Shown here piece after piece: positions 20,670-43,442 of a stretch of DNA of 64,000 nt. How positions within the stretch are numbered: the stretch's first letter is position 1; every line of letters starts with the position of its first letter. A program made the position numbers and the translations under genes. The notes under the pieces are model-generated. The model saw only the letters and a program-made list of their open reading frames with translations. It ran no database searches and was not told the origin of the DNA. This stretch comes from Trypanosoma brucei (Eukaryota): NCBI GenBank assembly GCA_000002445.1, contig CM000208.1, positions 3,008,001 to 3,072,000 on the forward strand, in the 5' to 3' direction.

Positions 20670-21620
20670 TTATGACCTGCAGAGAACAGGATAGTAAGGA
20701 TTATGGCAATATGAAGCGGGCCGTGAGTTGGTTGCCATGGCGCTCCGTCTGGAGACTGAAGCATCGCTGAAGGCTGCAACAAGTGTCGGTCGGCTCTTCA
20801 CGACGGTACTCGTGCGGACGCGTGCGGTCACTCGGCATCGTGGAATTACGCTGCATGTTGCTGGAAGTGGCTCACCAGCGGCATCTACACGAAAAGACAA
20901 GGCGGTGTAACCGCCTGCTCCCATGGATAACGCTGGCGCCTCACGCTCCGGTGACGAAATGCAGAAGTCGCTTAACATCGGAGTCCCGCTTGCAAACGTA
21001 CGCGGCATCTTTTGAGAATCCGTGGCACTCGCGACTGCAGGGGACCTCGGCGTTGGAGTTACGGCTGCGGTACGGGCGGGTGCCCGTTTAAAGTCACCCA
21101 CAACAGTCGGGTCAACACAAAGTGTATGAATAAAACTGCATCGCTCGCCACGGCTGCACATTCGGTTGGTTGTATAAAGAGGGCAACGCATCAGTGAGTG
21201 CGGGAGTGCATTATGGTGTGCCACTGACCCGCGTGTGACGAGGACAAGTTCGCTGGAAATAAGTTCATGCTCTTGAGGGTTTTCCTGTGAGCAAACCTCC
21301 AAAACGTCTCCAGCTGGTAGCCGTTCGTACGTGCAATGGTCCTCATGGCGCCATATGTAATTCACATGAATGGGATGCGCCTCCAGCGTGCTGTAATCAA
21401 CATCGGCATGTACGAAGCGACAACTTTCCTCCTTTGCGCAGGAGTTTGGAACGCCAGATCTGTAATTGCGGCAAATCACAAGGCGGGAGATATTCAACCG
21501 TGCTGGTGGAACATGTAAAACAAAGTGGGCGGGCACCAGGTAAAGGTACTTGAAGTTGGGATCAAATACCTCCATGACGCCGTTTTGAACGTATTTGGCG
21601 CGATTGTCCTGCGATGACAT
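20670..21620 (-). CDS. CCCH zinc-finger RNA-binding protein paralog (316 aa from the MSSQDNRAKY start) with a C-terminal YCHNPY motif
   Basis: Same two-finger core (EVFDPNFKYLYLVPAHFVLHVPPARLNISRLVICRNYRSGVPNSCAKEESCRFVHADVDYSTLEAHPIHVNYIWRHEDHCTYERLPAGDVLEV; CPLYTTNRMCSRGERCSFIH). Start chosen at cat 21618-21620. The track ORF's extra 89 N-terminal residues (to 21887) are F/L-rich and AG-rich low complexity, translated from the upstream polypyrimidine tract and 5'UTR. Confidence 0.75.
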   Translation of the reverse strand: MSSQDNRAKYVQNGVMEVFDPNFKYLYLVPAHFVLHVPPARLNISRLVICRNYRSGVPNSCAKEESCRFVHADVDYSTLEAHPIHVNYIWRHEDHCTYERLPAGDVLEVCSQENPQEHELISSELVLVTRGSVAHHNALPHSLMRCPLYTTNRMCSRGERCSFIHTLCVDPTVVGDFKRAPARTAAVTPTPRSPAVASATDSQKMPRTFASGTPMLSDFCISSPEREAPALSMGAGGYTALSFRVDAAGEPLPATCSVIPRCRVTARVRTSTVVKSRPTLVAAFSDASVSRRSAMATNSRPASYCHNPYYPVLCRS

Positions 21621-21789
21621 ATTTCCACTTCCTTGTCTTTTCTTTTCCTCCCTTTTTTTTTCTCCTGCTTTCCTTTTGCAAGCGTTTCCTGTTGTCACGT
21701 TCAAACCGTTATCCGCTGTGCGATGCTTACTTTGTTTTAACTTTAAGAAACTGAAGATGAGTGTATTCGGCTTAACTTTGATATTTAAA

Positions 21790-21890
21790 CCAAACCAGGT
21801 TTGCAAAAAATAAAAAAAGGGGGGAAAAAATTGAAATCCATGAATATGCTTCAGAAAGAGAAACAGATAAGAAAAGTATGCACACAAACC
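21790..21890 (-). promoter_or_regulatory. Coding-strand polypyrimidine tract (purine-rich on the plus strand), the likely trans-splicing and upstream-polyadenylation signal for the zinc-finger gene starting at 21620
   Basis: The plus strand reads ...caaaaaataaaaaaaggggggaaaaaattgaaatcc...cagaaagagaaacagataagaaaag. Kinetoplastid SL trans-splicing needs a polypyrimidine tract on the mRNA-sense strand upstream of the AG acceptor (established knowledge). The placement is my inference. Confidence 0.4.
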
Positions 21891-24497: not shown

Positions 24498-25358
24498 TTA
24501 TAACCCGTAAGGATTATGTCGGTAGAAACGTGGGCGCCGAGGAGCACTGCCATCAGAAATGGTGTTCATGTCAGATGTAGTGCAATCATCATGTTGATGG
24601 CCACTTCCAGAAAGTCCGAGATGCCCGTTATCGCGACCTGAAGTGGGACTCGTCACATCGCTACTGCCGACGGAAGGAACTCTTTTGTGCACAACCATCG
24701 CGAAACCAAGTGGCGTCCCATCGGGAAATGAACCGGGAGAACTGTCGAGAGGGCTCCCAGCTGATAATTTTTCTCCGGATTTATTACCACTGGCGTGATG
24801 GCGCCGATGAGAGCGGCAAAGAATACGATTGGAGCTGAGATCCACTTCAGGGTCGACGGCAACAGCATGAACAAAGTTGCAGGACGCGCCACGATGACAT
24901 ACGCCATTAAAATAGTAATGTGCGCAATGAGAAAGTGGTCTTCCCTCCGCAGAGGGCTGTGGAATAACTGCTTGTGTAACAAGAACGAGTCCGCTAGCAA
25001 TCCTCTCAATTGGTTTTTTATTATTGGGAAGCAGAACCTCAAGCACATCACCCGATTGACAGCGTTCGTATGTACATTCACTCTCATGGCGCCATATGTA
25101 ATTCACATGAATGGGATGCGCCTTCAGCGTGCTGTAATCAACATTGGCGTGTAGAAACCTGCAATCGCTACCCGCAAGACATGAGTTCGGGTCGTAAGGT
25201 TTATAATGAGTACAAATCATTGTGTACGGGTTGCTTGGATGCACATGTGGCATGTGGACCACTGAATGAGAAGGTATCTCGTACATGTACCTGAACTCTA
25301 TATCAAATACCTCCACAGTGGTTTTACGGTTTTTTGCCATAGATTTCTTTGAGGGCAT
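24498..25358 (-). CDS. CCCH zinc-finger RNA-binding protein paralog (286 aa), ending FYRHNPYGL
   Basis: Fingers C-x10-C-x5-C-x3-H (CTHYKPYDPNSCLAGSDCRFLH) and C-x8-C-x5-C-x3-H (CAHYYFNGVCHRGASCNFVH). Near-identical at nucleotide level to the 29528-30436 gene over about 810 nt. The C-terminal [FY]RHNPY matches the MKT1-interaction motif described for trypanosome RNA-binding proteins (established knowledge). Confidence 0.8.
   Translation of the reverse strand: MPSKKSMAKNRKTTVEVFDIEFRYMYEIPSHSVVHMPHVHPSNPYTMICTHYKPYDPNSCLAGSDCRFLHANVDYSTLKAHPIHVNYIWRHESECTYERCQSGDVLEVLLPNNKKPIERIASGLVLVTQAVIPQPSAEGRPLSHCAHYYFNGVCHRGASCNFVHAVAVDPEVDLSSNRILCRSHRRHHASGNKSGEKLSAGSPLDSSPGSFPDGTPLGFAMVVHKRVPSVGSSDVTSPTSGRDNGHLGLSGSGHQHDDCTTSDMNTISDGSAPRRPRFYRHNPYGL
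24505..25317. repeat. Copy A of an approximately 0.81-kb segmental (tandem-gene) duplication. Its partner is at 29531-30346.
   Basis: Long runs are identical between the copies, for example ggattatgtcggtagaaacgtgggcgccgaggagcactgccatcagaaatggtgttcatgtcagatgtagtgcaatcatcatgttgatggccacttccagaaagtcc (24510-24617 and 29536-29643) and the whole zinc-finger-encoding block. An internal patch of about 120 nt (24618-24736 versus 29644-29771) is unrelated and is flanked by re-convergence at gagaactgtcgagagggctccc. Confidence 0.85.
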
Positions 25359-29527: not shown

Positions 29528-30436
29528 TTACAGCTGCTGGTAAGGATTATGTCGGTAGAAACGTGGGCGCCGAGGAGCACTGCCATCAGAAATGGTGTTC
29601 ATGTCAGATGTAGTGCAATCATCATGTTGATGGCCACTTCCAGAAAGTCCATATTGCATACTTCCAACTGCAGAGGCGGAAAATGATGAGCCGCTGTAAA
29701 CTGTAGAAGGGGCTCGCTTACAAACCATTGTTGCAATGCTGGCGGGTACTCCTGCAGCACACGGGTTCGGAGAACTGTCGAGAGGGCTCCCACACGCCGT
29801 CTTCACAGCGGATTTATTACCACTGGCGTGATGGCGCCGATGAGAGCGGCAAAGAACACGTTTGGAGCTGAGATCCACTTCAGGGTCGACGGCAACAGCA
29901 TGAACAAAGTTGCAGGACGCGCCACGATGACATACGCCATTAAAATAGTAATGTGCGCAATGAGAAAGTGGCTTTGCCCTCGGTCTCCGGCGAGGAATAA
30001 CTGCTTGTGTAACAAGAACGAGTCCGCTAGCAATCCTCTCAATTGGTTTTTTATTATTGGGAAGCAGAACCTCAAGCACATCACCCGATTGACAGCGTTC
30101 GTACATACAGCACTGCTCGTGGCGCCATATGTAATTCACATGAATGGGATGCGCCTTCAGCGTGCTGTAATCAACATTGGCGTGTAGAAACCTGCAATCG
30201 CTACCCGCAAGACATGAGTTCGGGTCGTAAGGTTTATAATGAGTACAAATCATTGTGTACGGGTTGCTTGGATGCACATGTGGCATGTGGACCACTGAAT
30301 GAGAAGGTATCTCGTACATGTACCTGAACTCTATATCAAACGCACTGGTCACATCAGTTGCTGTGGTCATCTTGACTTTGTTTGGTTCTTCTTGATATTC
30401 TTCTCTTTCTTGATGAACTATTCGGTGCTGTGCCAA
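29528..30436 (-). CDS. CCCH zinc-finger RNA-binding protein paralog (302 aa; alternative start MTTATDV at 30373), ending FYRHNPYQQL
   Basis: Recent tandem duplicate of the 24498-25358 gene. The zinc-finger core is identical, and the N-terminus, an internal patch and the 3' flank have diverged. A purine-rich plus tract at 30440-30520 is a coding-strand polypyrimidine tract immediately upstream. Confidence 0.8.
   Translation of the reverse strand: MAQHRIVHQEREEYQEEPNKVKMTTATDVTSAFDIEFRYMYEIPSHSVVHMPHVHPSNPYTMICTHYKPYDPNSCLAGSDCRFLHANVDYSTLKAHPIHVNYIWRHEQCCMYERCQSGDVLEVLLPNNKKPIERIASGLVLVTQAVIPRRRPRAKPLSHCAHYYFNGVCHRGASCNFVHAVAVDPEVDLSSKRVLCRSHRRHHASGNKSAVKTACGSPLDSSPNPCAAGVPASIATMVCKRAPSTVYSGSSFSASAVGSMQYGLSGSGHQHDDCTTSDMNTISDGSAPRRPRFYRHNPYQQL
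29531..30346. repeat. Copy B of the approximately 0.81-kb segmental duplication (partner at 24505-25317)
   Basis: See copy A. Similarity ends at about 30346 on the 5' side of the gene, where the N-terminal coding sequences diverge, and at about 29531 just beyond the stop codon. Confidence 0.85.
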
Positions 30437-31426: not shown

Positions 31427-32947
31427 CTACGACCCCTCCATAACAGTTGATCGACTACTCGCATTGTCCCTTCGAGATAACTCCACTTCAGTAGCATCAC
31501 GAATGCGGGCAATTAGCAGACTTGTTGATATCCCTTCCGTACGTGGTGCTGTCCGAAGAATACCCATTCTGCGTGGCACTGCATAATACGTGTCATCAGG
31601 GCGGTTGTATTCATCACCACACACCACCACGTGAATATTGTAGCGTTTGATCATTTCTTCAGTGACGCCGGTAACAGGGCTGTTCCGAATAACCTGTGAA
31701 ACAAACTTACACATCTTTACTTCATTCACCCTTTCATCGACTGTCATGATTGGCCGTCGTTTGTACGCTTCGCATTCATCATCTCCACAAACACCAACAA
31801 TGAGGCGATTGCCGTAGAGAAGAGCATTCTGCAGGAAGTTCTTATGTCCCGCATGACACAAGTCAAAAACACCATCACAGAACACATTTCTCACAGGCGC
31901 GAAAAGGGGAATACGCGCGGAATATGACAGATCCGCCATCATCCCAATAACGTACAGGATCGATGCGCCTATGGAAAGAATATCGTTAAATACGGATCCC
32001 ACACAAATACAAATGACGGCCGCATGCACCCGCCTGCCGGAAACGTTGCTCACATGCACCTCCGTTGAAAGTAAACCAACAGCAAGAGATCCACTGATAA
32101 GACTGAATACATTGTTGTTAGTGAAAGAAAAGATATTGAACAGCGGCACCACACGAGTGGCCAAACACACGGCAATCGCCGCCTTATGTTTCTTCTCCAT
32201 CTTCAGAAGCAACAAGTTTGTGAAGCTCACCATGACAAGGAATATGAATGCATCTCTCAAAAAGTTTGGATAGACTGGACTGTAAAAGTTCATATCCGGA
32301 AATACCACTCTTGCAATCAACGCGCAGAGAATTAGGAAGGAAAGTTCCGAGTCACGAAAGCAATACGTCAGGTGATAAACAACTGTCTTCGCCTTCCCTC
32401 CTCTCAGATTTTCAGCGCTTATGCGTCCCAGCACCGTGTTGAATTCGATCAGTTGCAGTACCATTAGAGCATACCACTGTGTTGAGATATCAACTATATT
32501 GAACGCTTTCATGAGCGTCAGAGCAAAGAAAATGCGCAGAACACTACTGCAGACACGAGAAAATATGTCACCCAGTGGCGTAGCGGAGCGGCACCGCCTT
32601 GCGTGCACACCATCCAACGCACCGCACATGATAGCTACAACACATAACAAAGACGACATTAATATGGGCCCAGTTGCCGCTGCAGTGTGTGACTGAGGGG
32701 TTTGGTCATAGTACTCGCTGAGGATCTGGTATGACTGCACGGAGCTCATTAAACCCACTAATGTAATGGTGTTGGGTGCCACGGCCTCCGGCACAAAAGT
32801 GCTATCTAAAAAAACCCAAAGTGAGTGGAGCACCAACGTCACAAAACTAACGGGACGCGTCTCAACACTTGTATCTGCATGTGCGACGCGGTCCCGCTCC
32901 AGAGGTGTAAAAAAAAAACTGTGGTCACTCAGGTAGTGGGATACCAT
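31427..32947 (-). CDS. Choline/ethanolamine-phosphate cytidylyltransferase (C-terminal about 170 aa) fused to an N-terminal multi-pass CDP-alcohol-phosphotransferase-like membrane domain (506 aa)
   Basis: C-terminal domain: HxGH nucleotidyltransferase motif (GVFDLCHAGHKNFL) and the CCT/ECT signature RTEGISTSLLIARI. N-terminal domain: the CAPT-family entry motif VAPNTITLVGL and a partial DG-x2-AR-x8-G-x3-D-x3-D motif (ALDGVHARRCRSATPLGDIFSRVCSS), with about 7 hydrophobic helices. Confidence 0.8.
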   Translation of the reverse strand: MVSHYLSDHSFFFTPLERDRVAHADTSVETRPVSFVTLVLHSLWVFLDSTFVPEAVAPNTITLVGLMSSVQSYQILSEYYDQTPQSHTAAATGPILMSSLLCVVAIMCGALDGVHARRCRSATPLGDIFSRVCSSVLRIFFALTLMKAFNIVDISTQWYALMVLQLIEFNTVLGRISAENLRGGKAKTVVYHLTYCFRDSELSFLILCALIARVVFPDMNFYSPVYPNFLRDAFIFLVMVSFTNLLLLKMEKKHKAAIAVCLATRVVPLFNIFSFTNNNVFSLISGSLAVGLLSTEVHVSNVSGRRVHAAVICICVGSVFNDILSIGASILYVIGMMADLSYSARIPLFAPVRNVFCDGVFDLCHAGHKNFLQNALLYGNRLIVGVCGDDECEAYKRRPIMTVDERVNEVKMCKFVSQVIRNSPVTGVTEEMIKRYNIHVVVCGDEYNRPDDTYYAVPRRMGILRTAPRTEGISTSLLIARIRDATEVELSRRDNASSRSTVMEGS

Positions 32948-34733: not shown

Positions 34734-37700
34734 TTACTTGGTTACCTTTCGTTTGATGCGCACCATCGCCGTTACTGCTTTGCGCAGTTCATCCGCTTTG
34801 CGGTCCCACACGGATCCCAGCGTACATCCGTTACCATCCACCACTTGCACGGTACTGTTCGGCCCAGCGTCCCTCACGCGATTCACCACACCAACGGAGA
34901 ATCCCGGAATGCCATGAATCGGTTGCGTGTCATACCCCAGTAAGGTCATAGTGATTGGTTTGTTGTTCACCATGGCATCGCGGCATGCTTCGAAGAAGGT
35001 TCCAGCTGCCGCAAAGTCCACTACTGATGCTTCCAATGGAATGAGAAGCCGCTCGAACGCCGTGTTTGCAAAGTCAACAATCTCTTTGCTGTCAAGGCGG
35101 CTCGCGACGGCTGTGTCCGGAACAGAGAATGTCGTTTTAGTGTACAGGAAGTCCTCAGAGGAGTACTGCCCAGTGCCACTTACGGAAGTGGAGCCATCAC
35201 CACCGCACATCTCGGAAGCAACGAGGGCCAAGCAATGAAAGGCTGGCCAAACACTCGGCTTAAAGGGATGGTGCACAATTGAGTGGGACATGTCATAGCC
35301 GTACGTTCCAACGTAGTTGTCGCCCTGCCTGGCCGTAGTGAGCAGGAGCGTGCCACGGGCGCGCAGCGATATTGAATCCACGGCAGCCAAGGCATCGAAA
35401 AGTACGTTCAGTGGGCAGACCCAAGCACGAAGAAACGCCTCGTGGTTTGCGTCACTAAGCGTGACAACAGCGCGCTCTTTGTCGTAGCTCAGAACAATGG
35501 CGTACGGTCCCCCAGAACCTCCATTCCATACCTCTCTATTGGCTTGTATAACAGCGGGGTCGAAGTTCACAATGAGGCAACGTTCCTTGGGGGCCTCTAA
35601 CGCAGAGAGAATTTGGCCAACAAGTGCTTCAGGAGTGGAGTGCTTAACGTCCTTGTCCATGTGTGTCGTGAAGACACTCACCTTGTCCCCCAGATGATTG
35701 TGGGAGTAGTTCCTCGCGACAGTCGCTGCACTTTCCAATGGCAAATGTGCGGACAACATGAAAGAAGTATGGAATCCACTGAGGTTAGCCACAGTTTCCA
35801 CGTTTGCATCGAAGCCGAGAGTATCTAAAGCTTCAGCAAGGATTGTCACAACATAATTCTTTTTCGGATATTCAAAACGAAGGAGTCGCATTGTGGGTGG
35901 AAGTGAGTACCGAGCATCACTCAAAATGGAATCCTCGAACTGTTGGGCGCTGAGTTTGGAAATAGTGTCTGGCGACTTGGCAGCCAATATATAACCGTAC
36001 CCAATCACGGCAGAATACAGCCGGGGAAGTGGCACGTTCCATGTCTTACGGTACTTCTTCACACTGACGTCAGCGAGCCGAACGACCCCCTGCTCTGCAT
36101 CGAAGCCAATAACAATGGCAAAGTGACAAGGTTCGGCACGTTGGTCCACCATGACATTCAATGCAATGTTAACATTAAAGCCAATAAGCATAACACTTTT
36201 GGTTTTCACAACGAGATCAATATGTGCCATGAAAGTGTCATCTGTGATGTTTACTGGTCCATCTGCAGCATCCCCACGACGGTTAATGAGCACAACACCA
36301 AGTGCAACAGCGTCGGCGAGGTTCAACTTCTTAAGAAACACCCTGTACCAGCTAAAGGCCCTGCAAACAGAAACCTTGGTGCTGTTACCAACAATGGTGG
36401 CAATGTCAAGGTTGAGTACCTGGCACAATTTTGTAACGGGAATACCACGCAGTTTACCGCGGTCTAGTGCGCTACCAACGCCACTTTCCCGGTGTTTTCC
36501 TTGGTTCAGAAGAGTGCATGAGACAAGGTGGTGCATTAATGCGAGGCCAACTATGTGTGGTGCGATGGAGGCGTCAACCGCAGTCATTAATAACCCGCCA
36601 CTGAGGGAACCATCGAGCATGCCCAGCGGGAATATGGAAGGTACTTTTTCCATGTGTCGTTCGCTCACAAAGACGCGAACGAATCCACGGGATCGATTGC
36701 AGTATCCGTCCTTCACGCACAACGCATTGTAGAGCGTTTGTAGAGGAACGCCATGCTCCTCAACAACAATACGGCCATCCTCCAACAAAAGTGGCACCCC
36801 GAAACTAACAGAGTGCAGGGCAGGCCTGAAATCAGTAATCAGGGCAAAGGTGCCTTGGTTCTTGGCCGACCAACGTGGTTTTATTGGGTCTGGTAAACCC
36901 TCGCCATCGGGGTTCTCAGTGTAGTTCAGGCGCATCCTTATTTCGTGTTGTTCAATCAAGTAAGGATCAAAGTTTATTATATACATTGGGTTTTCCTCAT
37001 TTTGAGACAGCTCCTTGCGAAACTGGGACAAAGTTCGGATGGTGGCTTGTTCCTCCGCACCCATCCCATCACACGACTCATCTACTGCTTCCGTGTCAAA
37101 TGTAACCACCTCACAGCGAGTCTTGGTCCTCAGCATTGCCGGATGACCTTCTACGAACTCATTCGTCACATCAAATAGTTCAGCGAGTGTAACAGACGGA
37201 AAGGATACGTAGTGCATTGCCAAACGGTTTTGGCGAAGGATGTCTTCGATTGTTATCTTCTCACCGGATACATAGCTGCACGCAAGTGCAATGCTGAGTA
37301 ACCAAGCGCATGGCGCATTGGCCAACTCGTTTACGTCGTTCGAATCAGGTTGTGTTAACATCGGCTTTAAGAATTCCTGCAGTTTTTGCTTCGCGGCCTG
37401 GGCTTTACGGCGGTTGTTCAGAGCATCGGTATGCTCAGGAGATTTAGCAGCAGTTAGCACCACCTTTTTGGAGTGAGCACCGGTAGCGGTGGCGCCGGCC
37501 GCTGTCGATCCCGCAAGTGGCGGAAGAAAGCTGGAGTTGGCTGCGGTGGCGGTTGCACCTGGATCTAAAGTGGGTCGCTGAACGTTGAAGCGAGCCCCTC
37601 GTCCAATCGCCATGGCCGAGGCTGATGGGCTGACTGCAGTTTCGGATGCCAAACGACCCTCACGCCCATCTGCAGTGACACAAGGCGCAAGCTTCTTGAT

Positions 37701-37835
37701 GTCGGAATGCATCAGATCCAGCTTTGCCTGGATTGATTGCAACCTTTCATCCAAAGATTCTGGTTTGGCTCCCATTGTAACAAAGCTGTTTTCTGGTGGT
37801 GCTTCGCGGAAAAGATGCCAGAAATAATTCGACAC
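34734..37835 (-). CDS. Large protein (1033 aa) made of four tandem, divergent phytochelatin-synthase-like (papain-fold, peptidase C83-like) repeats
   Basis: Repeat segments resemble the plant PCS N-terminal catalytic domain ([40 protein letters not shown]). Repeat 2: CHFAIVIGFDAEQGVVRLADVSVKKYRKTWNVPLPRLYSAV. Repeat 3: GPYAIVLSYDKERAVVTLSDANHEAFLRAWVCPLNVLFDAL. Repeat 1: QHEIRMRLNYTENPD...ALITDF...VPLLLED, plus a Cys-containing CAWLLSIALA (compare YCGLASLSVV). Repeat 4: ITMTLLGYDTQPIHGIPGFSVGVVNRV. Confidence 0.65.
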   Translation of the reverse strand: MSNYFWHLFREAPPENSFVTMGAKPESLDERLQSIQAKLDLMHSDIKKLAPCVTADGREGRLASETAVSPSASAMAIGRGARFNVQRPTLDPGATATAANSSFLPPLAGSTAAGATATGAHSKKVVLTAAKSPEHTDALNNRRKAQAAKQKLQEFLKPMLTQPDSNDVNELANAPCAWLLSIALACSYVSGEKITIEDILRQNRLAMHYVSFPSVTLAELFDVTNEFVEGHPAMLRTKTRCEVVTFDTEAVDESCDGMGAEEQATIRTLSQFRKELSQNEENPMYIINFDPYLIEQHEIRMRLNYTENPDGEGLPDPIKPRWSAKNQGTFALITDFRPALHSVSFGVPLLLEDGRIVVEEHGVPLQTLYNALCVKDGYCNRSRGFVRVFVSERHMEKVPSIFPLGMLDGSLSGGLLMTAVDASIAPHIVGLALMHHLVSCTLLNQGKHRESGVGSALDRGKLRGIPVTKLCQVLNLDIATIVGNSTKVSVCRAFSWYRVFLKKLNLADAVALGVVLINRRGDAADGPVNITDDTFMAHIDLVVKTKSVMLIGFNVNIALNVMVDQRAEPCHFAIVIGFDAEQGVVRLADVSVKKYRKTWNVPLPRLYSAVIGYGYILAAKSPDTISKLSAQQFEDSILSDARYSLPPTMRLLRFEYPKKNYVVTILAEALDTLGFDANVETVANLSGFHTSFMLSAHLPLESAATVARNYSHNHLGDKVSVFTTHMDKDVKHSTPEALVGQILSALEAPKERCLIVNFDPAVIQANREVWNGGSGGPYAIVLSYDKERAVVTLSDANHEAFLRAWVCPLNVLFDALAAVDSISLRARGTLLLTTARQGDNYVGTYGYDMSHSIVHHPFKPSVWPAFHCLALVASEMCGGDGSTSVSGTGQYSSEDFLYTKTTFSVPDTAVASRLDSKEIVDFANTAFERLLIPLEASVVDFAAAGTFFEACRDAMVNNKPITMTLLGYDTQPIHGIPGFSVGVVNRVRDAGPNSTVQVVDGNGCTLGSVWDRKADELRKAVTAMVRIKRKVTK

Positions 37836-38274: not shown

Positions 38275-39285
38275 TTAACTTCTGAATAACTCAATATCAG
38301 CAACGCGCGCAAGGTCCTCATCAAGTCCCACAATTTCGCCGCCGTCCGTCAAATCCGTGCGCAACCCAACCGAACCTGTGCTTGCCTGTTTATACCGACA
38401 GACTCCATGTTGAAGCACAGCATTACCTAGACTGCTAAAGTCGCCACGCCTAATAACCAAGAGCATGCCATCGTGCAGTCTGGCATCAAACATATAAAAG
38501 CCACGTATCACACGTACCCGCATAAAACCTCTTGAAGAATAAAAACGCAACAACGCTTCATCTGATGCCAAGCAATGTAACCAGACTTCCGCCACACCGC
38601 AGCGAAGGTTCGAGTGGCCGGAATCGATCGGTCTGTCAGGGAGTGTTTTGGGGTCCCTTGGAGGGTTATTCAGCTGCTCACTATGGCTTTCTATTCCAAG
38701 ACGCTGCTGCAAAAAACTTGAAACAGCTGTAAAAAAACTTTTCAGCACCGGAGCGAGCGCTTTGCCAAAGGAGAGACCACCATTTCCTGCCCGAATGAGA
38801 GGCGGCACAGGAATATTGAAGAACATGTATGTTAAAAATCGTGTCAGTAAAAGTTCCCCAACACCGCGACGGCGGAGTCTTGGATCCACGGCAAACGACA
38901 TCAAATAGCCCGTCGGTGATGGCTCCAACTGGCCGTCTTCGTACCGTTTATGGCCGAGTTGACCAATACAGAAACCAGCCAGACAGGAGTATACCAAAGG
39001 GGGTTCAACAACCCCAGCTTCCGTAGACAATTCTGTTTCCACTCCACTATGCGTGTCATGGGGATCCATGACGACATCTCTATGAGATACATGCGCAACA
39101 ATAGCCACAGACGATCCTGAGCGCAGCCAATTGTAGTAATCGTCCGGATATTCGACAGGGAAAGATATGGCGTGGAGCGCCTGTATGCTTTCCATGTCGC
39201 TCTCTGCAATTCCCCAGCTAAGATGCACTGTTAATGGTCTTCCCCCATTACGACTCGGGAGTGCAACAAGCTCCACTGCGCTCAT
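38275..39285 (-). CDS. GNAT-family N-alpha-acetyltransferase (Naa50/Naa60-like) with an internal insertion and a C-terminal extension (336 aa)
   Basis: AISFPVEYPDDYYNWL matches Naa50 (VIFPVSYNDKFYKDV). Acetyl-CoA-binding motif A: SFAVDPRLRRRGVGELLLTRF. Putative motif B, displaced about 120 residues downstream: WLHCLASDEALLRFYSSRGFMRVRV. Confidence 0.72.
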   Translation of the reverse strand: MSAVELVALPSRNGGRPLTVHLSWGIAESDMESIQALHAISFPVEYPDDYYNWLRSGSSVAIVAHVSHRDVVMDPHDTHSGVETELSTEAGVVEPPLVYSCLAGFCIGQLGHKRYEDGQLEPSPTGYLMSFAVDPRLRRRGVGELLLTRFLTYMFFNIPVPPLIRAGNGGLSFGKALAPVLKSFFTAVSSFLQQRLGIESHSEQLNNPPRDPKTLPDRPIDSGHSNLRCGVAEVWLHCLASDEALLRFYSSRGFMRVRVIRGFYMFDARLHDGMLLVIRRGDFSSLGNAVLQHGVCRYKQASTGSVGLRTDLTDGGEIVGLDEDLARVADIELFRS

Positions 39286-40749: not shown

Positions 40750-41664
40750 CTACTGCTTTGCCTGAAGCTTGGCGGCACGCCACCCCTTCACCTTTCTTGT
40801 GATGTATTCAATTGTGAAGAAGCACACCACTGTGTGTGTCGCACAGCGGAAAAAGTACGGCGCGAAGGAGTCGTACACCGCCAATGCCCCCTCCTCACGA
40901 ACGACTCGTCCTATCGTCTGAGTCACACTCTTATACTTTGCTTTGGTGGTATCAGCGGACATACGTACACGTGCGAATTCAACTGGCATCGTGATAACGG
41001 AATAAAACAATGCTGTAAGGATGCTCGCTGCATTGACGACAATGTTGTCTCCGTATGGTTGGGTTCCGTGCAATTGAGAGTAGGAAACATTACGACGCCG
41101 CAACGCGGAAAGGACTTGATCATGCACAGCGACTTGGGCAACGCCCACCAGTGCTGCACGAGAAGCAAGGGCACTGACACCACGCCAATATCCCGTGATT
41201 CCGTTAGTTGAGTATACGGTAATCGCCGCACGCGTCAACGACTGCTTCGATGCACCGGTCATTTGCAGAACGAGACAAACCTCCACTGGGGAAGTGAGGA
41301 TACTGGAAAAGACACCAGCCAGGGCGCCAGCAAGTGCACGCTCGGCAACTGTTGGCATGCCGTCGGCGTCACCCTTCAGAGACATGATGGCATCACGAAA
41401 TATGGGATAACACCCAAGTCTTGCAGGAGCGTACACGGCCTGGCGGAGGATTCCCGTAGACAAACCCCTGAATGGTCCACGTTCCCACACCTTAACCAAA
41501 CATTCCTTCTGTGAGGTACCTTTGGGTGCAGTCATCACCGTATTCTTCCACATTTCATAAGGGTGCGTGAACAACCATGCAAACATGCCGGAAAAACCAG
41601 CAATCCCGATCGTGTAGACCTTAGGAAGGGGCGCATTCGCGGGCGCCTTTGTCTCTTTCGACAT
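40750..41664 (-). CDS. MCP12: Mitochondrial carrier family (SLC25) protein, 304 aa
   Basis: Three carrier signature repeats P-x-[DE]-x-x-[KR] (HPYEMWKN, SPVEVCLVLQ, MPVEFARVRM) and six hydrophobic helices. The symbol comes from the remembered T. brucei synteny (HSP110...TRF neighbourhood) and is only moderately certain. Confidence 0.82.
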   Translation of the reverse strand: MSKETKAPANAPLPKVYTIGIAGFSGMFAWLFTHPYEMWKNTVMTAPKGTSQKECLVKVWERGPFRGLSTGILRQAVYAPARLGCYPIFRDAIMSLKGDADGMPTVAERALAGALAGVFSSILTSPVEVCLVLQMTGASKQSLTRAAITVYSTNGITGYWRGVSALASRAALVGVAQVAVHDQVLSALRRRNVSYSQLHGTQPYGDNIVVNAASILTALFYSVITMPVEFARVRMSADTTKAKYKSVTQTIGRVVREEGALAVYDSFAPYFFRCATHTVVCFFTIEYITRKVKGWRAAKLQAKQ

Positions 41665-42293: not shown

Positions 42294-43442
42294 TCACTCG
42301 TTATTCTCCATATTGGAGGCTTTCTCGGGAGAGCGTGCGGCGACGCTGTTCTTTCCCCTGTATCCTTGTTGTTGTATAACCTTATAGCGCAGCGTCCCAC
42401 GCCAATGATCATACAGTTGACTGACAGTTCTTGCAGGGTGCCACACGGAGCGGTAGGCGTAGTAAATTTGTTGAAACCTCTGCTGTCCCTTCGTGAAGCG
42501 TGCCAAACCTTTTATGATAGCTTCATCTTCCGATGCGCTAAATTTATACCGTTTTTGCTTGCCGGATGATGTCCCAACGCCCACATTAGCAAAGTTGCTT
42601 ACCTCACTGCTAGAGTGTGTTTCGATAGTAGAGCCCCTTTCAGACCCCACACGAAACTCACTCGGATTAGTAGGGTGTAGTGACGGTCCTCCAGCTCCAC
42701 GGTTGACCATTTCACCAACAGCATCGAAAGATGACACTGTGCGGGTGGTGCCCGGCAGTGCGGGCAGTTGTTCCAAGACGTCCAAGGCATTATTTTGTTC
42801 AGCTTCGTCAACAGTGTCATCACCGGAATTGGCAGCGGGACTCAACGTCTCACTCGCTGGCACTGGACTTTCCGGTCGCACATAGGCCCACTCCGTTACT
42901 TCAGGAGAATCACGCCGCCTTTTCGTACCAGCGGCACCGTTTGAACAAGTTTTCCATTTCCCTGGTGTTTGACCACAATCATACTCTCCCATGCAAGGGG
43001 AAGAGCGTCCAGTCAACGCGTCGTAGCCTTCACTAATAAGTGAGCGAAGGCGCTCCGTAGACGAGGTGATTCCTCCACTACCGTCATCGGGGTCACACTC
43101 ACCAGATTCAAGTCGCGCAATGATCTGTCGAAGATGAGCGTTTTCGTCAACAACGTGCCTTAACATCGCATACACATCAGCCACAGTCATCGGTTCAAGG
43201 TGTGACAACTGGTCCGTCTCCCTCTGGACACCCAAAGAAGAGGCTAATAATGCGGAGACGATTCCACTTCGGTATCCGCACGTACGCCAAAACTCCGAAC
43301 TGCCGTGGAGAGGTTCAAGCGCGACGGCGGCCGCAACTGAGAAGTTGTTGCCCTGCTTTATGTGCCCACAGAGAATCTTGTGGACCTCCGAGAAATCTGT
43401 TGGTGAAGGGGATGTGGATGGAACGCCAGCGTGACAGTACAT
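42294..43442 (-). CDS. TRF: TTAGGG-repeat-binding-factor-like telomeric protein with a C-terminal Myb/telobox domain (382 aa)
   Basis: C-terminal KQKRYKFSASEDEAIIKGLARFTKGQQRFQQIYYAYRSVWHPARTVSQLYDHWRGTLR follows the Myb/SANT/telobox spacing (acidic-hydrophobic helix 1, G..RF/W helix 2, W/R recognition helix). Length and architecture match what I recall of TbTRF; this is not database-verified. Confidence 0.78.
   Translation of the reverse strand: MYCHAGVPSTSPSPTDFSEVHKILCGHIKQGNNFSVAAAVALEPLHGSSEFWRTCGYRSGIVSALLASSLGVQRETDQLSHLEPMTVADVYAMLRHVVDENAHLRQIIARLESGECDPDDGSGGITSSTERLRSLISEGYDALTGRSSPCMGEYDCGQTPGKWKTCSNGAAGTKRRRDSPEVTEWAYVRPESPVPASETLSPAANSGDDTVDEAEQNNALDVLEQLPALPGTTRTVSSFDAVGEMVNRGAGGPSLHPTNPSEFRVGSERGSTIETHSSSEVSNFANVGVGTSSGKQKRYKFSASEDEAIIKGLARFTKGQQRFQQIYYAYRSVWHPARTVSQLYDHWRGTLRYKVIQQQGYRGKNSVAARSPEKASNMENNE

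What the first reader, a model, noticed from the sequence alone, without database searches (positions are those of the whole stretch)
31427..32947. Cytidylyltransferase fused to a CDP-alcohol-phosphotransferase-like membrane domain whose catalytic aspartates are largely missing
The C-terminal 170 aa form a clear CCT/ECT catalytic domain (HxGH = CHAGH; RTEGISTS). The N-terminal roughly 330 aa look like a choline/ethanolamine phosphotransferase, which is the next enzyme in the Kennedy pathway. They carry the family's entry motif APNTITLVGL and the ...DG..AR........G... backbone. In the canonical D1xxD2G..AR-x8-G-x3-D3-x3-D4 metal-binding motif, however, the sequence reads G-A-L-D-G-V-H-A-R...G-D-I-F-S-R-V-C-S. 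So D1, D3 and D4 appear to be replaced (G, S, S). If that holds, the CDP-alcohol phosphotransferase fold has been kept only as a membrane anchor or regulatory pseudo-enzyme for the cytidylyltransferase. Metazoan CCTs reach the membrane through an amphipathic helix instead. The alternative would be substrate channelling between two consecutive Kennedy-pathway steps in a single polypeptide.
Basis: partly seen in the sequence, partly recalled or inferred. Interest (0 to 1): 0.65.

Follow-up and report, generated by a model that had tools for sequence, protein, structure and literature searches.

The report
Membrane-anchored trypanosome CCT with dead phosphotransferase domain
This is the known Trypanosoma brucei choline-phosphate cytidylyltransferase gene, whose enzyme domain is fixed in the membrane by a ten-helix domain descended from the next enzyme of the same lipid pathway, which has lost the residues needed for catalysis.

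Summary
Window 31427..32947 (-) is one uninterrupted 506-aa ORF, 100% identical to T. brucei brucei TREU927 XP_823483.1/Q388W5 (Tb927.10.12810, "cholinephosphate cytidylyltransferase A, putative").

- **C-terminal domain.** Residues 354-486 are a CCT/ECT-type cytidylyltransferase domain with HAGH at 365-368 and RTEGISTS at 469-476.
- **N-terminal domain.** Residues 1-349 have the whole 10-TM CHPT1/CEPT1 fold.
- **Catalytic motif.** A gapless HMMER alignment to three solved CHPT1/CEPT1 structures puts G109, S130 and S134 at D1, D3 and D4. R131 sits at the catalytic His. Only D2 (D112) is kept.

- **The gene is already studied.** The L. major orthologue is an ER-resident enzyme with measured CCT activity, and a separate CEPT is essential there.
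- **The fusion is not a kinetoplastid invention.** More than 100 sequence clusters from Heterolobosea, Amoebozoa, Ichthyosporea, red algae, glaucophytes, cryptophytes, stramenopiles, Perkinsus and giant viruses share the architecture. Most have a fully intact DxxDG..AR..GE..DH..D motif.

Kinetoplastids are therefore a derived lineage of an apparently bifunctional family, and the phosphotransferase half is most likely inactive. It is still conserved, most strongly around the former active site. I found no paper that describes this pseudo-enzyme status.

The parts
31427..32947 (-). Complete CDS (506 aa plus stop) of the T. brucei choline-phosphate cytidylyltransferase Tb927.10.12810
   Evidence: Single ORF. 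It is 100% identical to P0059, which is XP_823483.1/Q388W5 of T. b. brucei TREU927. Papers name this gene as choline-phosphate cytidylyltransferase.
31901..32947 (-). N-terminal membrane domain, aa 1-349, with the CHPT1/CEPT1-type 10-TM CDP-alcohol phosphotransferase fold. It is predicted to be catalytically inactive.
   Evidence: Foldseek aligns it to the whole of human CEPT1 8gyw_A (385 columns, target TM 0.67), and to 9uet, 8ero and 8ul9. phmmer to CHPT1/CEPT1 gives E 3e-9 to 8e-8. BLASTP to the N-domain of the motif-intact Percolomonas protein covers aa 12-349 at E 2e-26. The helix pattern comes and the hydropathy.
32360..32779 (-). Pfam PF01066 CDP-OH_P_transf match, aa 57-196. It begins with A57-PNTITLVGL, where N59 corresponds to the cytidine-binding Asn64 of xlCHPT1.
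   Evidence: 24.2 bits, cutoff 22. Alignment. Residue roles from PMC10182977.
32546..32623 (-). Degenerate CDP-alcohol phosphotransferase signature, aa 109-134: G109(D1) xx D112(D2) G113 xx A116 R117 x8 G126 D127(E) xx S130(D3) R131(H) xx S134(D4)
   Evidence: Gapless alignment to 8ero, 9uet and 8gyw. All kinetoplastid orthologues lack D1 and D3. This stretch is the most conserved part of the N-domain in kinetoplastids.
31886..31933 (-). Conserved linker between the last TM helix and the catalytic domain, aa 339-354 (D339-LSYSARIPLFAPVRN)
   Evidence: Mean column conservation is 0.81 for aa 341-360 among 38 kinetoplastid sequences. D339, S341, P347, F349 and N354 are invariant or nearly so.
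31490..31888 (-). Cytidylyltransferase catalytic domain, aa 354-486 (CCT/ECT type, HxGH nucleotidyltransferase fold)
   Evidence: PF01467 at E 2.3e-16. phmmer to rat CCT 3hl4 (7e-21), PfCCT 4zcp (8e-19) and human ECT 3elb. Foldseek target TM 0.6-0.83.
31844..31855 (-). HxGH motif (H365-A-G-H368)
   Evidence: It is invariant in the family.
31520..31543 (-). RTEGISTS motif (R469-S476)
31430..31489 (-). Short C-terminal tail, aa 487-506. It leaves no room for the amphipathic membrane-binding M domain or the phosphorylation region of animal and yeast CCT.
   Evidence: Sequence length. The model shows only one short helix at 487-496, with low pLDDT at the end.

Best explanation
**What it is.** The ORF is the Trypanosoma brucei CTP:phosphocholine cytidylyltransferase (Tb927.10.12810).

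**The active part.** The C-terminal 130-residue domain is the working enzyme. It makes CDP-choline from CTP and phosphocholine.

**The membrane part.** The N-terminal 349 residues form a ten-helix membrane domain with the fold of choline/ethanolamine phosphotransferases. It descends from the working phosphotransferase half of an old two-domain protein that is still widespread, with an intact active site, in many protists and giant viruses.

**What changed in kinetoplastids.** Three of the four Mg2+-binding aspartates and the catalytic histidine were lost. This half is now most probably inactive.

**What the dead domain does.** It holds the cytidylyltransferase permanently on the cytosolic face of the ER or nuclear envelope. 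CDP-choline is therefore released at the membrane where the separate enzyme CEPT uses it. This replaces the reversible amphipathic-helix membrane binding that regulates animal and yeast CCT.

**Shown:** the domain identities, the fold, the residue losses, and the distribution of the family.

**Taken from papers on the Leishmania orthologue and on T. brucei:** CCT activity, ER or nuclear-envelope location, and a separate essential CEPT.

**Inferred:** loss of phosphotransferase activity, the cytosolic orientation, and the anchoring role.
For: **Identity.** The protein is 100% identical to T. b. brucei TREU927 XP_823483.1.

**Domains and fold.**

**Active-site loss.** G109, S130 and S134 sit at D1, D3 and D4, and R131 at the catalytic His, in a gapless alignment to three solved structures.
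- In xlCHPT1, D111 and D132 each bridge both Mg2+ ions.
- Each Asp-to-Ala change leaves less than 20% activity.
- E129A and H133A almost abolish activity (PMC10182977).

**Loss across the clade.** The residues are missing in all 38 kinetoplastid sequences examined, including bodonids. These sequences form one clade.

**Descent from an intact fusion.**
- The exhaustive profile search found more than 100 full-length, two-domain cluster representatives.
- 133 of 300 retrieved proteins have DDDD plus HxGH.
- Named members include Percolomonas, Balamuthia, Sphaeroforma, Rhodosorus, Cyanophora, Pteridomonas, Klosneuvirus, Tupanvirus and Fadolivirus.
- The T. brucei N-domain aligns end to end with the intact Percolomonas N-domain at E 2e-26.

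**Relaxed constraint.** At equal C-domain divergence, kinetoplastid N-domains are more diverged than motif-intact ones. For example, N-domain identity is 0.36 against 0.53 when C-domain identity is 0.65-0.75.

**Function of the orthologue.** LmCPCT (LmjF.18.1330) lysate makes CDP-choline, the knockout cannot put choline into PC, and the protein is in the ER with six predicted TM helices (PMC6527706).

**Separate last step.** L. major CEPT converts CDP-choline plus DAG to PC and is essential in promastigotes (PMC7996062). T. brucei has TbCEPT and TbEPT.

**Location in T. brucei.** Tb927.10.12810 is listed among nuclear-envelope-associated transmembrane proteins (PMC7889174).

**No M domain.** Only 20 residues follow the catalytic domain.
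Against: **No assay.** No phosphotransferase assay has been done on this protein or any orthologue, so inactivity is inferred from sequence only.

**The N-domain is more than a bare anchor.**
- 34 positions are at least 97% conserved across 38 kinetoplastids, and many are polar or charged (E17, R18, Q71, D112, Q165, E201, R265, E296, R305, H308, N321, D339).
- The best-conserved stretch is aa 101-140, the former active site.
- The residues matching the cytidine-binding Asn (N59) and the choline cation-pi Trp (W44) of CHPT1 are kept.
- These points suggest a ligand-binding or partner-binding role that a pure anchor model does not explain.

**The CT domain is atypical.**
- V425 replaces the choline-box Trp (rat W151, Pf W692).
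- C443 replaces the phosphate-binding His (rat H168, Pf H709).
- The Leishmania enzyme showed only about 26% of the yeast activity in lysates.

**Weak tree.** The neighbour-joining tree is crude, so the direction and timing of the loss rest mainly on parsimony.
Confidence: 0.75

Rival explanations
1. The N-domain is a regulatory pseudo-enzyme rather than a passive anchor. It keeps a pocket that binds a cytidine- or choline-bearing ligand (CDP-choline, CMP or phosphocholine) or diacylglycerol. Alternatively, it pairs within the membrane with the active CEPT or EPT. Either way it would tune or channel the output of the attached cytidylyltransferase, taking over the lipid-sensing role of the missing M domain. 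This refines the main explanation and does not exclude it.
For: - The former active-site helices (aa 101-140) are the most conserved part of the N-domain.
- N59 (cytidine-binding Asn64 in xlCHPT1), W44 (choline cation-pi Trp50), D112, G113, A116 and G126 are retained across kinetoplastids.
- The linker to the catalytic domain is highly conserved, and pTM 0.82 suggests a fixed domain arrangement.
- CHPT1 is a homodimer. Pairing of a dead paralogue with a live one would therefore be structurally plausible, though this is inference.
Against: - The diphosphate-binding Arg (R117) is not conserved in kinetoplastids. It is K, Q, E, A or S in orthologues.
- The choline-contacting Glu43 equivalent is Thr or Ala.
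- Without Mg2+ the diphosphate has no counter-charge.
- There is no binding or interaction data at all.
- The N-domain evolves faster than motif-intact counterparts.
Confidence: 0.3
2. The protein is still bifunctional. The N-domain carries out the cholinephosphotransferase or ethanolaminephosphotransferase step with a non-canonical metal site built from other acidic residues (D112, D127, E201, E296, D339). The two consecutive Kennedy steps would then be channelled in one polypeptide.
For: - The whole fold, D2, the glycines and Ala-Arg are kept, and the Pfam score is above threshold.
- Several acidic residues in the membrane domain are invariant.
- The relatives with intact motifs are presumably bifunctional.
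Against: - D1 and D3, each of which bridges both Mg2+ ions, are Gly and Ser. The proposed catalytic His is Arg. Single Ala changes at these positions leave less than 20% activity or almost none in xlCHPT1.
- E201, E296 (Asp in intact relatives) and D339 are conserved in the motif-intact relatives as well, so they are not compensating novelties.
- D127 is not conserved in bodonids.
- L. major promastigotes cannot survive without the separate CEPT although they keep CPCT.
Confidence: 0.07
3. The cytidylyltransferase domain does not primarily act on phosphocholine. It would activate phosphoethanolamine or another phospho-alcohol or phosphonate, and the database name 'cholinephosphate cytidylyltransferase' would be misleading for T. 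brucei.
For: - UniRef labels the family ethanolamine-phosphate cytidylyltransferase.
- The best PDB sequence hit by total score is human ECT, although this sums two domains.
- The choline-box Trp is Val425, and the His matching rat H168 is Cys443.
Against: - The L. major orthologue has the same Val and Cys. It nevertheless makes CDP-choline in vitro and is required for choline incorporation into PC, while ethanolamine incorporation continues in its absence.
- T. brucei has a separate ECT, Tb927.11.14140.
- The single-domain score is higher for rat CCT (77 bits) than for either ECT domain (72 and 54 bits).
Confidence: 0.08
4. The fusion is an artefact, meaning two adjacent genes joined by a sequencing frameshift or misassembly.
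For: None found.
Against: - It is one open frame.
- Identical or collinear proteins occur in independent genomes of T. brucei, T. b. gambiense, T. equiperdum, T. congolense, T. vivax, T. cruzi, Leishmania, Phytomonas and bodonids. They also occur in more than 100 unrelated clusters.
- The full-length L. major ORF was cloned, tagged at either end and shown to be functional.
Confidence: 0.01

Closest known systems
Leishmania major CPCT (LmjF.18.1330), Moitra et al. 2019, PMC6527706
   Same: Direct orthologue, about 55% identical and collinear over both domains. It has the same degenerate motif (G-D-S-S, with Arg at the His position), the same Val and Cys in the CT pocket, ER membrane location and CCT activity.
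   Different: The Leishmania protein carries an insertion of about 80 residues between the first two TM helices. The paper reports 'six predicted transmembrane helices' and does not mention homology to CDP-alcohol phosphotransferases (0 occurrences of 'CDP-alcohol').
Animal, yeast and Plasmodium CTP:phosphocholine cytidylyltransferase (PCYT1A; PDB 3hl4, 4mvc, 4zcs)
   Same: Same catalytic fold and motifs: HxGH, RTEGISTS, Lys396 (rat K122), Tyr447 (rat Y173) and Tyr455 (rat Y182). Sequence identity is about 34-36% over 135-150 residues. It catalyses the same reaction in the orthologue.
   Different: Canonical CCT is amphitropic. It is soluble and is activated by reversible insertion of an amphipathic M-domain helix, which is established knowledge (cited in PMC6527706). 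Here there is no M domain, and the enzyme is an integral membrane protein through an N-terminal 10-TM domain. The choline-box Trp and the phosphate-binding His are replaced by V425 and C443.
Eukaryotic choline/ethanolamine phosphotransferases CHPT1/CEPT1 (PDB 8ero, 9uet, 8gyw, 8ul9)
   Same: Same 10-TM fold over the full length (target TM 0.58-0.67). The APN entry motif, D2-G, A-R and G2 are present in exact register.
   Different: D1, D3, D4 and the catalytic His are replaced by G, S, S and R. Glu129 becomes Asp. Overall identity is only 12-17%. A cytidylyltransferase is attached to the C-terminus.
Uncharacterised fused PF01066 + PF01467 proteins of protists and giant viruses (for example Percolomonas A0A7S1PGS5, Balamuthia 'CEPT', Sphaeroforma SARC_03319, Klosneuvirus KNV1 'cytidylyltransferase', Tupanvirus, Fadolivirus)
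   Same: Same domain order, similar length (about 450-520 aa) and full-length homology. The kinetoplastid proteins nest inside this family in a rough tree.
   Different: Most of these keep the complete D-x2-D-G-x2-A-R-x8-G-E-x2-D-H-x2-D signature. They are therefore candidates for true bifunctional enzymes. I found no experimental paper on any of them.
Archaeal bifunctional IPCT-DIPPS (CTP:inositol-1-phosphate cytidylyltransferase fused to a CDP-alcohol phosphotransferase; Archaeoglobus fulgidus). This comparison is from my own knowledge of the literature and was not tested here.
   Same: A cytidylyltransferase and the CDP-alcohol phosphotransferase that uses its product are joined in one polypeptide. 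This is a precedent for consecutive steps being fused.
   Different: The domain order is the opposite, with the cytidylyltransferase N-terminal. The cytidylyltransferase has a different fold (sugar-nucleotidyltransferase type, not HxGH). The membrane core has six TM helices, and both halves are active. The protein here matches PF01467 and no NTP_transferase family.

Membership tests
CTP:phosphocholine/phosphoethanolamine cytidylyltransferase (PF01467, HxGH nucleotidyltransferase) | Profile match above the curated threshold | tested here: met
   PF01467 scores 60.6 bits against a cutoff of 21, at aa 356-480.
CTP:phosphocholine/phosphoethanolamine cytidylyltransferase (PF01467, HxGH nucleotidyltransferase) | HxGH and RTEGISTS motifs, and the Lys that binds the substrate phosphate (rat K122) | tested here: met
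   H365-AGH-368, R469-TEGISTS-476 and K396 are aligned to rat CCT and PfCCT. They are invariant in the family.
CTP:phosphocholine/phosphoethanolamine cytidylyltransferase (PF01467, HxGH nucleotidyltransferase) | Choline pocket Trp (rat W151, Pf W692) and phosphate-binding His (rat H168, Pf H709) of bona fide CCTs | tested here: not met
   V425 and C443 sit at these positions. Residue roles come from PMC6060094. Y447 and Y455 of the aromatic box are kept.
CTP:phosphocholine/phosphoethanolamine cytidylyltransferase (PF01467, HxGH nucleotidyltransferase) | Amphipathic membrane-binding (M) regulatory domain C-terminal to the catalytic domain, as in animal, yeast and Plasmodium CCT | tested here: not met
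   Only 20 residues follow the catalytic domain.
CTP:phosphocholine/phosphoethanolamine cytidylyltransferase (PF01467, HxGH nucleotidyltransferase) | [quoted passage not shown] | not testable with these tools
   It is shown for the L. major orthologue in E. coli lysate and by knockout labelling (PMC6527706). It has not been shown for the T. brucei protein in the papers I could search.
CDP-alcohol phosphotransferase (PF01066), CHPT1/CEPT1 subfamily | Profile match above the curated threshold | tested here: met
   24.2 bits against a cutoff of 22, which is marginal. The precomputed Pfam lists do not record PF01066 for any kinetoplastid orthologue.
CDP-alcohol phosphotransferase (PF01066), CHPT1/CEPT1 subfamily | Ten-TM fold of eukaryotic CHPT1/CEPT1 | tested here: met
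   Foldseek against 8gyw_A gives 385 columns and target TM 0.67. Target TM is 0.63 for 9uet, 0.58 for 8ero and 0.58 for 8ul9. The model has pLDDT 85.4.
CDP-alcohol phosphotransferase (PF01066), CHPT1/CEPT1 subfamily | Signature D1xxD2GxxAR...GxxxD3xxxD4 with four metal-binding Asp | tested here: not met
   The four positions read G109, D112, S130 and S134. The spacing and the G, A, R and G residues are in register.
CDP-alcohol phosphotransferase (PF01066), CHPT1/CEPT1 subfamily | Glu-His catalytic pair of eukaryotic CHPT1/CEPT1 (xlCHPT1 E129 and H133) | tested here: not met
   D127 and R131 sit at these positions.
CDP-alcohol phosphotransferase (PF01066), CHPT1/CEPT1 subfamily | Transfer of phosphocholine or phosphoethanolamine from the CDP-alcohol to diacylglycerol | not testable with these tools
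   No assay is reported for this protein or its orthologues. Absence of activity is predicted from the residue losses.
Fused CAPT-CCT family (PF01066 followed by PF01467 in one chain) | Collinear homology over both domains with other members | tested here: met
   Profile hits cover positions about 10-476 in more than 100 cluster representatives. P0049 covers 92% of the query. The N-domain alone scores E 2e-26 against Percolomonas.
Fused CAPT-CCT family (PF01066 followed by PF01467 in one chain) | Both active sites intact, which is the majority state of the family | tested here: not met
   133 of 300 retrieved proteins are DDDD plus HxGH. All kinetoplastid members are degenerate at D1 and D3.
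IPCT-DIPPS type bifunctional cytidylyltransferase/CDP-alcohol phosphotransferase | N-terminal sugar-nucleotidyltransferase-fold cytidylyltransferase followed by a six-TM CDP-alcohol phosphotransferase | tested here: not met
   The domain order is reversed and the cytidylyltransferase is PF01467. The membrane domain has the 10-TM eukaryotic fold. The description of IPCT-DIPPS itself is from memory.

The most novel reading that the evidence does not exclude
**Proposed reading.** The kinetoplastid N-domain is a relic of an ancient bifunctional Kennedy-pathway enzyme, in which a phosphotransferase and a cytidylyltransferase sat in one chain. That fusion may date back to the last eukaryotic common ancestor and still works in many protists and giant viruses.

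**What the relic became.** It has been re-used as a ligand- or partner-sensing pseudo-enzyme.
- It would still bind a choline- or cytidine-bearing ligand or diacylglycerol, or pair with the active CEPT.
- In that way it would control the rate-limiting step of phosphatidylcholine synthesis.
- It would replace the amphipathic-helix lipid sensor used by all CCTs studied so far.

**Recurrence.** The same decay of the phosphotransferase site has happened independently in several other lineages. Examples are Arcella and Difflugia, Cochliopodium, the Perkinsus group and an unnamed DSQYS clade. This points to a recurrent evolutionary route.
Probability: 0.25. Interest if true: 0.7.

Novelty: new variant of a known kind. 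Interest (0 to 1): 0.5.

Why it matters
**A different regulatory logic.** CCT is the rate-limiting, regulated step of phosphatidylcholine synthesis. Its textbook regulation rests on reversible membrane binding of an amphipathic helix. In trypanosomatids, and in the wider fused family, the enzyme is permanently in the membrane, so control must work differently.

**A specific structural hypothesis.** Recognising the anchor as a decayed copy of the next enzyme in the pathway has three uses:
- It suggests where to look for that control.
- It explains the 'six TM helices' noted but left uninterpreted for the Leishmania enzyme.
- It identifies a parasite-specific feature of a pathway already considered for drug targeting.

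**A wider question.** Most non-kinetoplastid relatives, including those of giant viruses, look like genuine single-chain enzymes for two consecutive Kennedy steps. Nobody appears to have characterised them.

**What limits the importance.**
- The gene and its CCT function are known.
- The domain pair is visible in public domain annotations.
- CPCT is dispensable in L. major.
- The inactivity of the N-domain is a sequence-based inference.

Tried and rejected
1. **Frameshift or two genes.** Rejected. It is a single ORF with collinear homologues everywhere.

2. **Misaligned motif.** Rejected. The HMMER alignment to three solved structures is gapless and in exact register, and the intact relatives align the same way.

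3. **Compensating acidic residues.** E201, E296 and D339 are also conserved in motif-intact relatives, and D127 is not conserved in bodonids. None is a convincing substitute.

4. **Kinetoplastid-specific invention of the fusion.** Rejected by the exhaustive profile search and the named hits.

5. **Literature searches.** I searched for a prior description of the fusion or the pseudo-enzyme domain. I found:
   - the Leishmania CPCT papers;
   - a nuclear-envelope survey that calls Tb927.10.12810 a transmembrane protein with a CCT domain and patchy orthologues;
   - the EMC paper that names the gene.

   None mentions the CDP-alcohol phosphotransferase homology or the lost aspartates. The library lacks most subscription journals and TriTrypDB pages, so prior mention elsewhere cannot be excluded.

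6. **Model geometry.** The model's coordinates are not exposed by the tools. I could not measure how close the CT active site lies to the former phosphotransferase pocket, or list residues lining the pocket.

7. **Timing of the loss within Euglenozoa.** No named diplonemid or euglenid homologue turned up. The nearest outgroups in the rough tree (P0047 and P0109, unnamed metagenome proteins) are themselves degenerate. I did not trace their origin.

8. **dN/dS.** Not attempted. The close T. brucei-group sequences differ at 0-3 residues, and the next orthologues are too diverged for reliable synonymous rates. I used a domain-wise identity comparison instead.


Full report
**1. What is at the coordinates**

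Window 31427..32947 (minus strand) is one ATG-initiated ORF of 506 codons with no internal stop. All 24 ORFs of 200 aa or more in the window lie on the minus strand. This arrangement is typical of a trypanosomatid polycistronic unit.

The translated protein is identical, residue for residue, to P0059. That is XP_823483.1 / EAN78655.1 / UniProt Q388W5 of Trypanosoma brucei brucei TREU927, named "cholinephosphate cytidylyltransferase A, putative". It differs at one position from the T. equiperdum protein and at three from the T. b. gambiense protein. Two papers name Tb927.10.12810 as the T. brucei choline-phosphate cytidylyltransferase. I equate the ORF with that gene from the shared product name and from its position next to a cluster of CCCH zinc-finger ORFs. 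That step is inference, because no tool output links the protein accession to the locus tag.

**2. The two domains**

- Pfam gives PF01467 (CTP_transf_like) at aa 356-480 (E 2.3e-16).
- Pfam gives PF01066 (CDP-OH_P_transf) at aa 57-196 (24.2 bits, gathering cutoff 22, E 5e-5).

Against solved structures:
- The C-terminal 157 residues match rat CCT 3hl4 (E 7e-21), Plasmodium CCT 4zcp (8e-19) and both halves of human ECT 3elb.
- The N-terminal 349 residues match Xenopus CHPT1 8ero (3.3e-9), human CHPT1 9uet (7.4e-9) and human CEPT1 8gyw (8.4e-8).

An AlphaFold2 model built on 42 homologues has mean pLDDT 85.4 and pTM 0.82.
- By Foldseek, its N-terminal part superposes on the entire 10-TM human CEPT1 (385 columns, target TM 0.67). 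It also superposes on CHPT1 and yeast CPT1.
- Its C-terminal part superposes on CCT catalytic domains (target TM 0.6-0.83).

The N-domain is therefore the full eukaryotic CHPT1/CEPT1 fold, not merely a hydrophobic stretch.

**3. The catalytic motif**

The HMMER alignment to the three solved enzymes has no gap between aa 100 and 140. I used the residue roles published for xlCHPT1 (PMC10182977).

| xlCHPT1 residue | Role | T. brucei residue |
|---|---|---|
| D111 | Mg2+ ligand, bridges both ions | G109 |
| D114 | Mg2+ ligand | D112 |
| D132 | Mg2+ ligand, bridges both ions | S130 |
| D136 | Mg2+ ligand | S134 |
| E129 | catalytic pair | D127 |
| H133 | catalytic pair | R131 |
| G115, A118, G128 | motif scaffold | G113, A116, G126 |
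| R119 | diphosphate binding | R117 |
| N64 | cytidine binding | N59 |
| W50 | choline cation-pi | W44 |
| E43 | choline contact | T37 |

In xlCHPT1 each Asp-to-Ala change leaves less than 20% activity, and E129A or H133A almost abolishes it. Loss of cholinephosphotransferase or ethanolaminephosphotransferase chemistry is the most economical inference.

**4. Conservation in kinetoplastids**

Orthologues occur in all trypanosomatids sampled and in bodonid-like sequences such as Neobodo designis.
- All lack D1 and D3.
- D4 survives in only one bodonid-like sequence.
- The diphosphate-binding Arg117 varies (K, Q, E, A or S).

The domain is nevertheless far from decaying.
- 34 N-domain positions are at least 97% conserved in 38 kinetoplastid sequences, and many are polar residues inside the membrane region.
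- The best-conserved N-domain stretch is aa 101-140, the former active site.
- The linker to the catalytic domain is as conserved as the catalytic domain itself.

At matched C-domain divergence, kinetoplastid N-domains are more diverged than those of motif-intact relatives.

| C-domain identity | N-domain identity, kinetoplastid pairs | N-domain identity, motif-intact pairs |
|---|---|---|
| 0.55-0.65 | 0.33 | 0.42 |
| 0.65-0.75 | 0.36 | 0.53 |
| 0.75-0.85 | 0.51 | 0.68 |

They suggest relaxed but continuing constraint. Two caveats apply: the pairs are not independent, and the alignment profile was built from intact sequences.

**5. The fusion is old and widespread**

An exhaustive profile search of 1.84 billion cluster representatives found more than 100 representatives that match both domains end to end at about 450-520 aa.

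Of 300 retrieved proteins aligned to a common profile:
- 133 have all four Asp plus HxGH;
- about 40 are of the kinetoplastid type;
- several other groups are degenerate in their own ways.

Named members:
- Percolomonas (Heterolobosea, in the same supergroup as kinetoplastids)
- Balamuthia, Arcella, Difflugia, Thecamoeba, Cochliopodium and Soliformovum (Amoebozoa)
- Sphaeroforma and Amoebidium (Ichthyosporea)
- Rhodosorus (red alga)
- Cyanophora (glaucophyte)
- Rhodomonas (cryptophyte)
- Pteridomonas (stramenopile)
- Perkinsus
- the giant viruses Klosneuvirus KNV1, Tupanvirus and Fadolivirus

The T. brucei N-domain alone aligns over aa 12-349 with the intact N-domain of the Percolomonas protein (E 2e-26). 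In a rough neighbour-joining tree the kinetoplastids form one clade nested among these proteins.

The simplest history is an ancestral two-domain protein with both sites intact, followed by loss of the phosphotransferase site in the kinetoplastid stem. This agrees with Padilla-Mejia et al. They list Tb927.10.12810 among T. brucei nuclear-envelope-associated proteins, describe it as a transmembrane protein with a CCT domain, find patchy orthologues, and bin it as dating back to the last eukaryotic common ancestor (PMC7889174).

**6. What the protein does**

For the L. major orthologue (LmjF.18.1330), Moitra et al. (PMC6527706) report:
- six predicted TM helices;
- ER location with GFP at either end;
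- CDP-choline formation by E. coli lysate, at about 26% of the yeast enzyme;
- loss of choline incorporation into PC in the knockout, while ethanolamine incorporation persists.

The same laboratory showed that the separate CEPT converts CDP-choline plus DAG to PC and cannot be deleted from promastigotes without an episomal copy (PMC7996062). T. brucei likewise has a separate TbCEPT and TbEPT in the ER.

Only 20 residues follow the catalytic domain. The amphipathic M domain that regulates canonical CCT is therefore absent.

CHPT1 has ten TM helices and its active site opens to the cytosol. A C-terminal extension should therefore lie on the cytosolic (or nucleoplasmic) face, next to the former active-site opening. 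This orientation is inferred.

**7. Mechanism I commit to**

Confidence is 0.75. The protein is an active CCT that is permanently tethered to the ER or nuclear-envelope membrane by a catalytically dead CHPT1/CEPT1-fold domain. That domain descends from a once-bifunctional enzyme. CDP-choline is produced at the membrane surface and used by the separate CEPT.

A refinement I consider plausible (about 0.3, not exclusive) is that the dead domain still binds a ligand or partner and regulates the enzyme. The reasons are the conservation of the ex-active-site helices and of N59 and W44.

Other readings are unlikely:
- residual phosphotransferase activity, about 0.07;
- a different substrate for the cytidylyltransferase, about 0.08;
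- an assembly artefact, about 0.01.

**8. Comparison with known systems and novelty**

The closest known entity is the characterised Leishmania orthologue. The catalytic half belongs to the CCT/ECT family but lacks the M domain and two pocket residues. The membrane half has the CHPT1/CEPT1 fold but fails the family's defining signature, so it should not be filed as a phosphotransferase.

The archaeal IPCT-DIPPS enzyme is a functional analogy only. It also fuses consecutive steps, but the domain order, the cytidylyltransferase fold and the activity status all differ. That comparison is from memory.

- **Already public:** the gene, its CCT role, its membrane location and its patchy distribution. 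Domain-based names such as [quoted passage not shown] already appear in some genome annotations.
- **Not found in any searchable paper**: recognition that the anchor is a phosphotransferase with a destroyed active site; that most relatives keep the site; and that the decay recurs in several lineages.

I therefore rate it a new variant of a known kind, of moderate interest.

Noticed in passing
window 31427-32947 (-), aa V425 and C443: In the cytidylyltransferase pocket, Val425 replaces the Trp that gives the cation-pi contact to choline (rat W151, Plasmodium W692). Cys443 replaces the His that binds the phosphocholine phosphate (rat H168, Pf H709). Tyr447, Tyr455, Lys396 and Arg469 are kept. 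The Leishmania orthologue has the same Val and Cys and is still active on phosphocholine. In the wider fused family the Trp position varies and is never Trp in the sequences I tabulated.
   Followed up: partly
proteins P0061-P0300 (no window coordinates), e.g. P0206 Percolomonas, P0218 Klosneuvirus KNV1, P0221 Tupanvirus, P0211 Fadolivirus: There is a large, apparently uncharacterised family of single-chain proteins with an intact CDP-alcohol phosphotransferase signature followed by an intact cytidylyltransferase. It is found in many protist groups. A big clade includes giant-virus proteins on contigs of 1.4-1.6 Mb. These are candidates for one-polypeptide catalysis of two consecutive Kennedy-pathway steps.
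   Followed up: partly
proteins P0274 Arcella, P0263 Difflugia, P0051 Cochliopodium, P0268 Perkinsus and relatives, P0278-P0284: The phosphotransferase signature has decayed independently in other branches of the fused family, while HxGH stays intact. The patterns (D1 D2 D3 H D4) are DDAHC in Arcella and Difflugia, DDGDI in Cochliopodium, DDNQD or DDNND in the Perkinsus group, and DSQYS in an unnamed clade.
   Followed up: partly
protein P0069 (733 aa, metagenome): One fused family member carries a third domain, PF00696 (amino-acid or uridylate kinase family), in addition to PF01066 and PF01467. The source names it 'uridylate kinase'. This may link pyrimidine nucleotide supply to the same chain.
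   Followed up: no
alignment A1 columns about 100-190; Leishmania, Leptomonas and Phytomonas orthologues (P0014, P0019, P0010): Leishmaniinae orthologues have a low-complexity insertion of about 80 residues between the first and second TM helices of the N-domain. Trypanosoma lacks it. This accounts for the 580-590 aa length of the Leishmania protein.
   Followed up: no
window 14813-16237, 20670-21887, 24498-25358, 29528-30436 (all -): Four successive ORFs downstream of the CCT gene carry weak CCCH zinc-finger matches. Two of them (286 and 302 aa) have the same zf_CCCH_4/Torus match at similar positions and look like tandem paralogues. Unusually long AT-rich spacers separate them (GC 0.29-0.39 between about 12 and 30 kb, against about 0.5 elsewhere).
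   Followed up: partly
window 34734-37835 (-): The ORF immediately upstream (1033 aa) has a partial match to the Phytochelatin synthase family (PF05023, 30.6 bits, aa 731-828, the C-terminal half of the profile only) and nothing else recognisable.
   Followed up: no
window 38275-39285, 40750-41664, 42294-43442 (all -): Further upstream neighbours are a GNAT acetyltransferase-like ORF, a mitochondrial carrier protein (PF00153, E 1e-31) and an ORF with an MCRS_N match. None has an obvious link to lipid synthesis.
   Followed up: no
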